DNA of 64,000 nucleotides from Escherichia coli (GCF_003019035.1 NZ_CP027447.1), one strand, 5' to 3'; shown: positions 34,596 to 37,500, numbered from the stretch's first letter. Program-made: the numbers.

Positions 34596-37500
34596 TTAAG
34601 CGCGCGCTTCAACTCACCCCTGCAATATTTTGTCCATCACGCGCCCCGGCAGCAGGCGCTTAAGCACCATTACCGCCCAGGTCACCAGCGTTACCGGATA
34701 GCGCATCTTCGGCTTCTCGCTAATAAAAGCATGGCGCACTTTGCCGACCACCGCTTCCGGTCCCAACGTAAAGCGGGCGGCGATGCCGGGATTTTCGACT
34801 GGTTTATCACTTTGCGTCTGGTTGACGTTGTCGGTGAAGCGAGTACGAATGGGACCAGGTTCGATCAGGCTAACTTTAATTCCGCTGTGACGTAGCTCCA
34901 TGCGCAGTGCGTCTGACCACGCCTCCAGCGCATATTTACTGGCCGCGTAAGCGCCACGACCCGGCGTGGAGATTAATCCCATCACCGATGAGGTCATCAC
35001 AATACGTCCTTCACCGTGCGGTAACATCGCGGGTAACAGGCGCATGGTGAGCTGGTGTGCGCCGAAAAAGTTGGCGGAAAACTGCTGTTCCATCTGCACA
35101 CGGCTGATGGTGGAAAGGGGGCCATACATGCCGAATCCGGCATTGTTAAAGATCCCATACAGACAATTATCGGTCAGGGCGATCACTTCGTCGGCTGCGC
35201 GATCAACACTTTCTGGTGAATCCAGATCGATCAACACGCCGGTAAATCCCATGCTGTTCATGCGCTCAACATCATCCGCTTTCCGGCAACCTGCCAGCAC
35301 ATGAAAACCCTGGCGTTTTAATTCGAGCGCGCTTTCCAGGCCAATTCCACTGGAACATCCGGTAATTAAGACCGATTTTTGCATAACTTTACCTGTCAGG
35401 ATCTCCGTTGCTTTATGAGTCATGATTTACTAAAGGCTGCAACTGCTTCGCCATCCAGTCGGCAATAAACGGCTGGGCGTCGCGGTTGGGATGAATACCG
35501 TCATCCTGCATCCATTGTGGTTTGAGGTAGACCTCTTCCATAAAAAAGGGCAGCAGCGGAACATCAAACTCTTTGGCGAGTTTGGGGTAAATGGCGCTAA
35601 AGGCTTCATTATAACGGCGACCATAGTTTGCAGGCAGACGTATTTGCATTAACAATGGTTCAGCGTTGGCGGCTTTGACATCCTGCAAAATCTGGCGCAG
35701 CGTTTGCTCGGTTTGTTGTGGCTGAAAACCACGCAAACCGTCATTGCCGCCCAGTTCAACCAGCACCCAACGCGGCTGATGCTGTTTCAGCAGAGCCGGA
35801 AGGCGCGCCAGCCCTTGTTGCGAGGTGTCGCCGCTGATGCTGGCATTGACTACCGACGTTTTACTCTGCCACTTATCATTCAACAAGGCAGGCCAGGCCG
35901 CGCTGGCAGACATTCGATACCCGGCGCTCAGGCTATCACCCAGAATCAATAACGTGTCCGCTGCGGCGGCACGGAAGGTTAACAGGACCAGGAACAGGAA
36001 GGGCAAATGCCAGCGGAAAACATTGTTGAAGTTCATCATCTTAAGAAGTCCGTCGGTCAGGGGGAGCATGAACTCTCCATCCTCACCGGAGTTGAGCTGG
36101 TTGTCAAACGTGGCGAGACCATCGCACTGGTGGGCGAGTCGGGATCGGGTAAGTCAACCTTGCTGGCGATCCTCGCCGGGCTGGATGACGGCAGCAGTGG
36201 CGAAGTGAGTCTGGTGGGACAACCGCTACATAATATGGACGAAGAAGCGCGGGCAAAGTTGCGCGCGAAGCACGTAGGCTTTGTTTTTCAGTCATTTATG
36301 TTAATTCCTACCCTTAACGCGCTGGAAAACGTCGAGCTTCCGGCGCTGCTGCGTGGTGAGAGTAGCGCAGAAAGTCGTAACGGGGCAAAAGCGTTGCTCG
36401 AACAGTTAGGACTGGGTAAACGTCTGGATCATCTTCCGGCACAGCTTTCCGGCGGCGAACAGCAACGAGTGGCGCTGGCGCGAGCTTTTAATGGTCGGCC
36501 TGATGTGCTGTTTGCCGACGAACCCACCGGCAATCTTGACCGCCAGACGGGCGATAAAATTGCCGACCTGCTGTTTTCCCTCAACCGTGAACATGGCACC
36601 ACGTTGATTATGGTGACCCACGACCTGCAACTGGCGGCACGCTGCGACCGCTGCTTACGGCTGGTGAACGGGCAGTTGCAGGAGGAAGCATGATTGCACG
36701 TTGGTTCTGGCGCGAATGGCGCTCGCCGTCGCTATTAATTGTCTGGCTGGCGCTAAGCCTGGCGGTGGCCTGCGTGCTGGCGCTGGGCAATATCAGCGAT
36801 CGCATGGAGAAGGGCTTAAGCCAGCAAAGCCGGGAGTTTATGGCGGGCGATCGGGCGTTGCGCAGTTCGCGCGAAGTGCCGCAAGCGTGGCTGGAGGAAG
36901 CGCAAAAGCGCGGCCTGAAAGTCGGCAAGCAGCTGACTTTCGCCACCATGACATTTGCAGGCGACACACCGCAGCTGGCGAACGTCAAAGCGGTGGATGA
37001 TATCTACCCGATGTATGGCGATCTGCAAACCAATCCCCCAGGCCTGAAACCGCAGGCGGGCAGCGTATTGCTGGCCCCACGCCTGATGGCACTGCTTAAC
37101 CTGAAAACGGGCGACACCATTGACGTGGGCGATGCCACCTTGCGGATTGCCGGAGAAGTGATTCAGGAACCGGATTCCGGTTTTAACCCCTTCCAGATGG
37201 CTCCGCGTCTGATGATGAATCTGGCGGATGTCGATAAAACCGGAGCCGTGCAGCCGGGGAGTCGGGTCACCTGGCGTTATAAATTCGGCGGCAACGAGAA
37301 CCAGCTCGACGGCTATGAGAAATGGTTGTTACCCCAGCTTAAACCCGAACAACGCTGGTACGGTCTGGAACAGGACGAAGGCGCGCTGGGGCGATCGATG
37401 GAACGCTCGCAGCAGTTCCTGCTGCTTTCGGCGCTTCTGACCTTGCTGCTGGCAGTGGCAGCGGTGGCGGTGGCGATGAATCATTACTGTCGCAGTCGCT

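What the first reader, a model, noticed from the sequence alone, without database searches (positions are those of the whole stretch)
36007..36039. Divergent genes tesA and ybbA overlap at their 5' ends by 33 bp
With the tesA start at MMNFNNVF (36039, minus) and ybbA at MPAENIVEV (36007, plus), the first 11 codons of each gene are encoded on opposite strands of the same DNA. Their promoters must therefore lie inside each other's coding sequence. I believe this is conserved in K-12.
Basis: partly seen in the sequence, partly recalled or inferred. Interest (0 to 1): 0.2.

Follow-up and report, generated by a model that had tools for sequence, protein, structure and literature searches.

The report
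Head-to-head overlap of tesA and ybbA
Two E. coli genes that face away from each other, and whose proteins work together in one membrane complex, share their first 30-33 bases on opposite DNA strands; the overlap is real and strongly conserved, but it is already annotated and described.

Summary
The window is E. coli. tesA (minus strand, ATG at 36039) and ybbA (plus strand, ATG at 36007) overlap by 33 bp, exactly as annotated in K-12 MG1655. RefSeq's annotation of this strain starts tesA at the second ATG (36036), which gives 30 bp.

The ybbA start is unambiguous. The tesA start is inferred to be ATG 36039 or 36036:
- These are the only start codons upstream of the conserved Arg9 of the signal peptide.
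[quoted passage not shown] The exception is a metagenome-assembled genome with a longer N-terminus.
- A published start-site map puts the tesA transcription start at 36071, a 32-nt leader. Its promoter (TTGACA-17-GAGGAT) lies inside ybbA codons 25-34.

Third-codon-position diversity of ybbA codons 1-11 is 0.043, against 0.474 for the rest of the gene. The junction block is at least 99% identical in all 5417 E. coli genomes that hold it.

The ybbA promoter is not resolved. Every mapped candidate start is weak and lies inside tesA or ybbO.

Outside Enterobacterales the pair is still head-to-head. In 20 of 60 loci the two start codons share a CATG palindrome.

The overlap, the functional YbbAP-TesA partnership and the overlapping transcription are all published. 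This is already known and of low interest.

The parts
36007..36039 (.). 33-bp stretch that encodes YbbA residues 1-11 on the plus strand and TesA residues 1-11 on the minus strand, with codons in exact antiparallel register
   Evidence: Third-position diversity is 0.043 for ybbA and 0.069 for tesA, the lowest 11-codon window of each gene.
35413..36039 (-). tesA coding sequence as annotated in K-12 (208 aa plus stop); thioesterase I / protease I / lysophospholipase L1, a GDSL hydrolase
   Evidence: PDB chains match residues 27-208 at 100%.
36007..36693 (+). ybbA coding sequence (228 aa plus stop), the ATP-binding subunit of the YbbAP type VII ABC transporter. 36007 is the only possible start: an in-frame stop lies 8 codons upstream, and the next start-type codon is GTG at codon 42.
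   Evidence: 100% identical to PDB 9GE6-8 chain B residues 15-242.
35962..36039 (-). TesA signal peptide (residues 1-26). The n-region MMNFNNVFRWH is the overlapping part. The h-region is LPFLFLVLLTF and the cleavage region is RAAA, followed by the mature start ADTLL.
   Evidence: Sequence. Solved structures of mature TesA begin at residue 27.
36034..36036 (-). Second ATG of tesA, the start chosen by RefSeq/PGAP (207 aa, 30-bp overlap). It is the only Met in Superficieibacter, Enterobacter sp. Bisph1 and Mangrovibacter.
36067..36069 (-). Upstream in-frame ATG, the start of the 218-aa database versions (63-bp overlap). It is preceded by a strong Shine-Dalgarno-like GGAG that is the antisense of ybbA codons for LSIL. 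It sits 2 nt from the mapped 5' end and is absent from 2 Enterobacteriaceae loci.
36004..36006 (-). TTG (Leu12 of TesA) abutting the ybbA ATG, the start of the 194/197-aa database versions (no overlap). It has no Shine-Dalgarno match, would leave no charged n-region, and is not conserved.
36071..36071 (-). Mapped tesA transcription start site (45 reads), giving a 32-nt leader
   Evidence: PMC3415461 supplementary file 2, mapped to the window
36079..36084 (-). tesA promoter -10 hexamer GAGGAT, the antisense of ybbA codons Ile25-Leu26
   Evidence: Conserved in Enterobacteriaceae.
36102..36107 (-). tesA promoter -35 hexamer TTGACA with a 17-nt spacer, the antisense of ybbA Val32(3rd base)-Val33-Lys34
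   Evidence: Invariant in the Enterobacteriaceae alignment.
35996..36003 (+). ybbA Shine-Dalgarno sequence AGGAAGGG (-7.0 kcal/mol), which lies inside tesA codons 13-15
35218..35852 (+). Span holding all reported weak plus-strand start sites that could serve ybbA: 35852 and 35620 (Kim et al., 2 reads each); 35665, 35438 and 35218 (Cappable-seq, scores 2.45, 1.55 and 1.63). All are antisense to tesA or ybbO.
34614..35423 (-). ybbO, the gene downstream of tesA in the same putative operon
   Evidence: PMC12646458
36690..39104 (+). ybbP, the permease gene downstream of ybbA (4-nt ATGA overlap with ybbA)

Best explanation
tesA and ybbA are the first genes of two divergent operons, tesA-ybbO and ybbA-ybbP. 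Their coding sequences truly overlap head-to-head by 30 or 33 bp.

The overlapping part encodes the N-terminal tail and first beta-strand of the ABC ATPase YbbA on one strand. On the other strand it encodes the n-region of the cleaved signal peptide of periplasmic TesA. That n-region needs little more than a basic residue (Arg9) ahead of the hydrophobic core. It can therefore be 'overprinted' on the antisense of the YbbA codons: NFKNIF is the antisense of ENILEV.

Because there is no intergenic DNA, the tesA sigma-70 promoter sits inside ybbA codons 25-34 and its 32-nt leader is antisense to ybbA codons 12-22. The ybbA ribosome-binding site, and whatever promoter ybbA uses, sit inside tesA. 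The two mRNAs are therefore complementary over at least about 220 nt at their 5' ends.

The arrangement is an Enterobacterales version of an older zero-spacer junction, in which the two start codons share a CATG palindrome.

Shown: the sequence overlap, the conservation, the tesA transcription start and the functional partnership of the proteins. Inferred: which ATG tesA uses, where the ybbA promoter is, and the evolutionary route.
For: - **Anatomy and annotation.**
- **ybbA has one possible start.**
- **tesA start.** At least one of ATG 36039 and ATG 36036 is present in 18 of 19 Enterobacterales loci (the exception, metagenome-assembled genome L023, has a longer N-terminus). In Rahnella a stop codon lies directly upstream of them. 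Arg9 (Arg8 when numbered from the second Met) is kept in 17 of the 19; Pectobacterium L015 and L023 have remodelled n-regions that still carry basic residues. In Photorhabdus it is kept through a change that alters YbbA residue 3.
- **Signal peptides elsewhere.** Where the heuristic found a start with one, TesA signal peptides outside Enterobacterales have Lys or Arg, usually at position 2-4. A TTG 36006 start would leave none.
- **Conservation between species.** Diversity over all sites is 0.047 in the overlap, against 0.21-0.22 in the flanking coding sequence. ybbA third-position diversity is 0.043 in codons 1-11, 0.18-0.23 in codons 12-34 and 0.474 in codons 35-228, and the overlap ranks 1 of 218 windows. 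Control gene 5' ends give 0.205 (ybbP) and 0.405 (ybbO).
- **Conservation within E. coli.** Block 36007-36107 is at least 99% identical in 5417 of 5417 E. coli genomes. A control block in ybbA reaches that in only 200.
- **tesA transcription start and promoter.** PMC3415461 supplement, mapped to the window.
- **Leader structure.** The leader is unstructured, z = +0.79.
- **Functional partnership and noted operon overlap.** PMC12646458.
- **Overlapping transcription.** tesA-ybbA is one of 16 divergent 'excludons' seen in at least 50% of 58 transcriptomes (PMC12288877).
- **Ancient junction.** ybbA is the divergent neighbour in 79 of the 80 loci, and 20 of 60 non-Enterobacterales loci share CATG.
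Against: - No direct evidence for the tesA initiation codon was found. The signal peptide is removed, so the mature N-terminus (residue 27) cannot tell the candidates apart.
- The tesA Shine-Dalgarno match at ATG 36039/36036 is weak (-3.2 kcal/mol). The upstream ATG 36069 has a strong one (-8.4 kcal/mol).
- Public databases hold four different TesA starts.
- The ybbA start sites are weak and disagree between the two data sets.
- Part of the conservation in ybbA codons 1-11 could reflect translation-initiation constraints on ybbA itself, or tesA regulatory RNA, rather than tesA coding.
Confidence: 0.8

Rival explanations
1. There is no coding overlap. tesA starts at TTG 36006 (Leu12), directly abutting the ybbA ATG, and the MMNFNNVFRWH extension is an annotation artefact of an open antisense frame.
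For: - Many database entries use this start (194- and 197-aa proteins beginning MPFLFL or MAFLFL).
- The 2012 Klebsiella annotation lists tesA at 594 bp.
- The position matches where tesA starts in Vibrio and Photobacterium.
- The antisense frame of a coding region is often open by chance.
Against: - The TTG is not conserved: TGG in Citrobacter werkmanii, and non-TTG Leu or Phe codons in Rahnella, Photorhabdus, Providencia and Acerihabitans.
- There is no Shine-Dalgarno match (-1.5 kcal/mol).
- The resulting 15-residue signal peptide would lack the basic n-region residue found in the TesA signal peptides picked elsewhere.
- Arg9 upstream of it is conserved in 17 of 19 Enterobacterales loci.
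Confidence: 0.07
2. The overlap is longer. tesA starts at ATG 36069 (MLPLTDGLLKMMNF, 218 aa, 36-residue signal peptide), which gives a 63-bp overlap.
For: - It has the strongest Shine-Dalgarno-like match of any candidate (-8.4 kcal/mol, GGAG 5 nt upstream).
- An ATG or GTG is present at this position in most Enterobacteriaceae.
- 218-aa entries exist in databases.
Against: - The mapped transcription start (36071) is 2 nt upstream of this ATG, so the Shine-Dalgarno-like sequence is not in the main transcript.
- The ATG is simply the complement of ybbA His21. It is lost where YbbA has Gln there (Citrobacter sp. FP75, Enterobacteriaceae RIT691).
- Rahnella has a stop codon directly upstream of the MM start.
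- The GGAG is the antisense of the conserved YbbA residues LSIL.
Confidence: 0.08
3. The overlap is real and also acts as a regulatory device. The face-to-face promoters and complementary 5' mRNA segments cause transcriptional interference or RNase III cleavage (a divergent excludon). This would tie TesA and YbbAP expression together, either reciprocally or in a set ratio.
For: - ExcludonFinder lists tesA-ybbA among 16 divergent excludons.
- The mapped start sites imply at least 220 nt of complementary RNA.
- The zero-spacer junction is kept across Gammaproteobacteria.
- The proteins form one complex.
Against: - No expression data for this pair were examined.
- The excludon model predicts mutually exclusive expression, which fits poorly with two proteins that must work together.
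- Both genes appear weakly transcribed, which limits interference.
- The junction may persist only because mutating a shared CATG, or dual-coding bases, damages both genes at once.
Confidence: 0.25

Closest known systems
The annotated tesA (b0494) / ybbA (b0495) junction of E. coli K-12 and the YbbAP-TesA complex (PLoS Biol 2025, PMC12646458)
   Same: Same locus, with sequence identical across the junction. [quoted passage not shown] PDB 9GE6-8 holds these proteins.
   Different: Nothing differs in kind. RefSeq's annotation of the matching strain starts tesA one codon later, giving 30 instead of 33 bp.
Divergent excludons (overlapping 5' transcription of divergent neighbours; ExcludonFinder, NAR 2025, PMC12288877)
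   Same: tesA-ybbA is one of the 16 divergent excludons listed for E. coli MG1655. The mapped start sites confirm overlapping 5' ends.
   Different: In a typical excludon only untranslated regions overlap. Here the coding sequences overlap too, and reciprocal expression has not been shown for this pair.
Divergent (5'-5') overlapping gene pairs in bacterial genomes
   Same: Opposite strands with overlapping 5' ends. [quoted passage not shown]
   Different: The class is very rare: 2 of 663 overlapping pairs in E. coli (PMC4161906). Many annotated cases are suspected mis-called starts. This one has comparative and transcription-start support.

Membership tests
Divergent (5'-5') overlapping gene pair | Two protein-coding genes on opposite strands whose 5' coding ends share bases | tested here: met
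   ORFs and annotations give 33 bp in K-12 and 30 bp in PGAP.
Divergent (5'-5') overlapping gene pair | Both annotated start codons are the ones actually used | tested here: inconclusive
   The ybbA start is the only possible one. The tesA start is supported by conservation, the Arg9 argument and the 32-nt leader, but no initiation-site or precursor N-terminus data were obtainable.
Divergent (5'-5') overlapping gene pair | The overlap is conserved in related genomes and under dual constraint | tested here: met
   All 19 Enterobacterales loci overlap by at least 30 nt under the heuristic start choice. Third-position diversity is 0.043 and 0.069, against 0.45-0.47 elsewhere. The block is at least 99% identical in 5417 E. 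coli genomes.
Divergent excludon | Transcripts of divergent neighbours overlap at their 5' ends | tested here: met
   The tesA start is at 36071 (minus strand) and the candidate ybbA starts are at or below 35852 (plus strand). The pair is listed by ExcludonFinder.
Divergent excludon | Mutually exclusive (reciprocal) expression of the two partners | not tested
   No expression series for this pair was available in the tools.
Divergent excludon | Double-stranded RNA formation and RNase III processing of the overlap | not testable with these tools
   This needs dsRNA capture or RNA-seq of an rnc mutant at this locus.
Sec-type cleavable signal peptide (TesA residues 1-26) | Basic n-region, hydrophobic h-region, small-residue cleavage site, and a mature protein that starts after it | tested here: met
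   Arg9, LPFLFLVLLTF and RAAA followed by ADTLL. Solved structures of mature TesA start at residue 27. This was judged by inspection only; no signal-peptide predictor was available.
YbbAP-TesA type VII ABC transporter-hydrolase system | YbbA ATPase, YbbP permease and the GDSL hydrolase TesA encoded together | tested here: met
   100% identity to PDB 9GE6-8 chains. ybbP lies downstream of ybbA. The pairing is conserved in 79 of the 80 loci.

The most novel reading that the evidence does not exclude
The near-gapless head-to-head junction of tesA and ybbA may be a selected cis-coupling device, not just a frozen accident. The junction is a shared CATG start palindrome in many Gammaproteobacteria and a 30-33-nt dual-coding overlap in Enterobacterales. 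Antisense 5' transcript overlap and promoter occlusion would then set the relative output of the hydrolase and its ABC transporter partner.
Probability: 0.2. Interest if true: 0.4.

Novelty: already known. Interest (0 to 1): 0.18.

Why it matters
The pair is one of only about two divergent coding overlaps in E. coli, and it joins the genes of two proteins now known to form one complex (YbbAP-TesA).

The practical points are modest:
- Anyone deleting, tagging or re-coding the 5' end of either gene will hit the other gene's coding sequence, promoter or ribosome-binding site. This includes the widely used leaderless 'TesA constructs and knock-outs.
- Gene callers disagree on the tesA start. Four versions are in public databases.
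- The locus could serve as a test case for whether divergent transcript overlap couples the expression of partner proteins.

None of this is new in kind.

Tried and rejected
- **Consensus promoter scan.** It found no promoter in 35400-36700. Its threshold (at least 4 of 6 matches per hexamer) misses the experimentally mapped tesA promoter, whose -10 hexamer is GAGGAT.
- **Translation-start evidence, none obtained.** The supplement of the tetracycline ribosome-profiling paper does not mention tesA or ybbA. No supplement is held for the retapamulin profiling preprint.
- **Other transcription-start sources.** The Thomason 2015 dRNA-seq paper is not held. The SMRT-Cappable-seq supplements do not mention these genes. 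The Cappable-seq start-site file is cut off before the minus strand, so it could not confirm the tesA start; its plus-strand part shows no start between 518616 and 523634 in U00096.2 coordinates. The ExcludonFinder supplements are not held. The Klebsiella start sites for this pair are not in the held part of the Kim et al. supplement.
- **RNA explanations.** Rfam gives no match in 35300-36800. The tesA leader folds no better than shuffled sequence. A structured-RNA explanation for the conservation was therefore dropped.
- **A downstream Met start for either protein.** Rejected, because it would remove the catalytic Ser of TesA or the Walker A motif of YbbA.

Full report
**What is there**

The window is Escherichia coli. 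Bases 35300-36800 are 100% identical to strain SCU-301 and are present in 5418 of 5426 complete E. coli genomes.

On the plus strand, ybbA runs 36007..36693 (228 aa, MPAENIVEV...). On the minus strand an ORF runs 35413..36069 and contains the tesA product; its MMNFNNVF start is at 36039. The interval 36007-36039 is therefore read on both strands. The codons are in exact antiparallel register: ybbA codon 1 (ATG) is the complement of tesA codon 11 (CAT).

K-12 MG1655 annotates tesA at 519139..519765 and ybbA at 519733..520419, the same 33-bp overlap. The K-12 and window sequences are identical from 35849 to 36182. RefSeq/PGAP annotation of the matching strain starts tesA at the second ATG (36036, 207 aa), which gives 30 bp.

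**Are the start codons real?**

ybbA has no alternative. An in-frame stop lies 8 codons upstream of the ATG. The next ATG, GTG or TTG is GTG at codon 42, directly before the Walker A motif. A good Shine-Dalgarno sequence (AGGAAGGG at 35996-36003, -7.0 kcal/mol) precedes the ATG. The protein cloned from this start gave the cryo-EM structures 9GE6-8.

tesA has four candidate starts, and public databases carry all four.

| Candidate start | Product | Overlap with ybbA |
|---|---|---|
| ATG 36069 | 218 aa | 63 bp |
| ATG 36039 | 208 aa | 33 bp |
| ATG 36036 | 207 aa (204 aa in Salmonella) | 30 bp |
| TTG 36006 | 197 or 194 aa | none |

The mature protein starts at residue 27 in every solved structure. 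The mature N-terminus therefore cannot discriminate between them.

I compared 80 loci from one genome per species. Across 19 Enterobacterales loci:

[quoted passage not shown] Three genera have Thr-Met, and Photorhabdus has Met-Leu. The exception, metagenome-assembled genome L023, has a longer N-terminus.
- Rahnella has a stop codon directly upstream of them.
- The TTG is replaced by non-start codons in several genera.
- ATG 36069 disappears wherever YbbA residue 21 is not His.
- Arg9 of TesA (Arg8 when numbered from the second Met) is kept in 17 of the 19. Pectobacterium and L023 have remodelled n-regions that still carry basic residues. In Photorhabdus the opposite YbbA residue changes from Ala to Thr through a substitution that is synonymous in tesA.

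Outside Enterobacterales, the TesA signal peptides picked by my heuristic carry Lys or Arg, usually at position 2-4. A TTG start in E. coli would leave none. The only start codons upstream of Arg9 are 36036, 36039 and 36069.

**Transcription**

A published start-site map of MG1655 (Kim et al. 2012, PMC3415461, supplementary file 2) lists a tesA transcription start with 45 reads and a 32-nt 5' untranslated region. Its 51-nt upstream sequence maps without mismatch to window 36121..36071 on the minus strand.

- The start is therefore at 36071.
- The promoter is TTGACA (36107-36102), a 17-nt spacer, then GAGGAT (36084-36079).
- This promoter lies inside ybbA codons 25-34.
- ATG 36069 is only 2 nt from the 5' end, so its strong Shine-Dalgarno-like GGAG (-8.4 kcal/mol) is not in this transcript. 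That GGAG is the antisense of the conserved YbbA residues LSIL.

The simple consensus scan missed this promoter. The leader is unstructured and matches no Rfam family.

For ybbA the evidence is weak:

- Kim et al. list plus-strand starts at window 35852 and 35620, with 2 reads each.
- Cappable-seq lists 35665, 35438 and 35218, with scores of 1.55-2.45 and nothing closer to the gene.
- All of these lie inside tesA or ybbO.

For ybbA it is only consistent with the data.

**Selection on the junction**

In 11 colinear Enterobacteriaceae sequences (75-96% identical overall), the pairwise diversity figures are as follows.

| Measure | Region | Diversity |
|---|---|---|
| All sites | overlap (36007-36039) | 0.047 |
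| All sites | tesA leader (36040-36071) | 0.068 |
| All sites | tesA promoter (36072-36107) | 0.108 |
| All sites | rest of tesA and ybbA | 0.21-0.22 |
| ybbA third positions | codons 1-11 | 0.043 (lowest of 218 windows) |
| ybbA third positions | codons 12-34 | 0.18-0.23 |
| ybbA third positions | codons 35-228 | 0.474 |
| tesA third positions | codons 1-11 | 0.069 (lowest of 198 windows) |
| tesA third positions | codons 34-208 | 0.448 |

Control gene starts in the same loci give 0.205 (ybbP) and 0.405 (ybbO), so an ordinary 5'-end effect does not explain the ybbA figure.

Within E. coli, block 36007-36107 is at least 99% identical in all 5417 genomes that hold it. A control block of the same length inside ybbA reaches 99% in only 200 genomes.

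**Why it is tolerated, and where it came from (inference)**

The overlapping part of TesA is the n-region of a signal peptide that is cut off, so its sequence is only loosely constrained. It varies (NN, KY, KH, NT, KN) while the opposite YbbA residues change only conservatively between Ile, Val and Leu. NFKNIF is literally the antisense of ENILEV.

In the 80 loci, ybbA is the divergent neighbour of tesA in all but one degraded case. With heuristic start choice:

- All 19 Enterobacterales loci overlap by 30 nt or more.
- Among the 60 other loci, 20 have the two start codons in a shared CATG palindrome (a 2-nt overlap). These 20 show 11 different distances between the conserved GDS and Walker A anchors. 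They come from Vibrio, Photobacterium, Psychromonas, Rheinheimera, Halomonas, Cycloclasticus, Dokdonella, Cupriavidus and others.
- Pseudomonas has a 10-nt spacer.
- Most of the remaining loci have spacers under 75 nt.

The anchor distance is 193 or 196 nt in 17 of the Enterobacterales loci (two have insertions) and 194 or 197 nt in the Vibrio, Photobacterium and Psychromonas loci with CATG junctions. The frame relation therefore differs by one base. This fits loss of an ancestral CATG start followed by adoption of an upstream ATG inside ybbA. That route is inferred, not shown.

**Comparison with what is known**

- The overlap is in the K-12 annotation.
[quoted passage not shown] It uses the co-location as support for the protein partnership.
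- ExcludonFinder (NAR 2025) lists tesA-ybbA among 16 divergent excludons in E. coli.
- Divergent coding overlaps are rare: 2 of 663 overlapping pairs in E. coli (PMC4161906).

Whether the overlap has a regulatory role has not been tested. The excludon model of mutually exclusive expression fits poorly with two proteins that act in one complex.

**Verdict**

The feature is real, conserved and correctly read by the first-stage reader, but it is already known. Two points remain open: which ATG tesA uses (33 or 30 bp), and where the ybbA promoter lies. The recurrent CATG junction outside Enterobacterales is the only element I did not find described, and it is a minor one.

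Noticed in passing
window 35384-35423 (minus strand): The annotated ybbO start (ATG 35423, which overlaps the tesA 3' end by 11 nt) is a Thr codon in 7 of 10 other Enterobacteriaceae, and two loci have in-frame stops just after it. The conserved Met is codon 14 (ATG at 35384...VMQKSVLITGCSSGIG). The real ybbO start is probably 35384, which would leave a 28-nt spacer after the tesA stop.
   Followed up: partly
L021, L022, L025, L027, L029-L032, L034, L035, L037, L038, L041-L044, L057, L058, L068, L079, L080 (junction near locus position 2430-2500): In about a third of the non-Enterobacterales loci the tesA and ybbA start codons share a palindromic CATG (2-nt head-to-head overlap). This holds despite 11 different N-terminal lengths. 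Start choice was heuristic.
   Followed up: partly
L015 (Pectobacterium zantedeschiae), upstream of locus position 2600: A 48-nt insertion sits inside the overlap region and both reading frames stay open through it. YbbA gains about 15 N-terminal residues and the TesA n-region becomes long and Arg-rich. The implied overlap is 51-78 nt.
   Followed up: no
window 36067-36084 (minus strand): The antisense of the conserved YbbA residues Leu-Ser-Ile-Leu forms a strong Shine-Dalgarno-like GGAG 5 nt before an in-frame ATG (36069). Some gene callers use this as the tesA start (218 aa). The mapped transcription start at 36071 excludes the GGAG from the main mRNA.
   Followed up: yes
L020 (Candidatus Pantoea persica): ybbA is reduced to fragments (residues 140-218 only) and the tesA match is truncated. 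This is consistent with gene decay in a symbiont.
   Followed up: no
L072, L073, L055 (Shewanella): The best-supported starts imply tesA-ybbA overlaps of 20-35 nt. This may be an independent origin of a longer head-to-head overlap.
   Followed up: no
window 36690-36693: ybbA and ybbP overlap by the common 4-nt ATGA stop/start arrangement.
   Followed up: no
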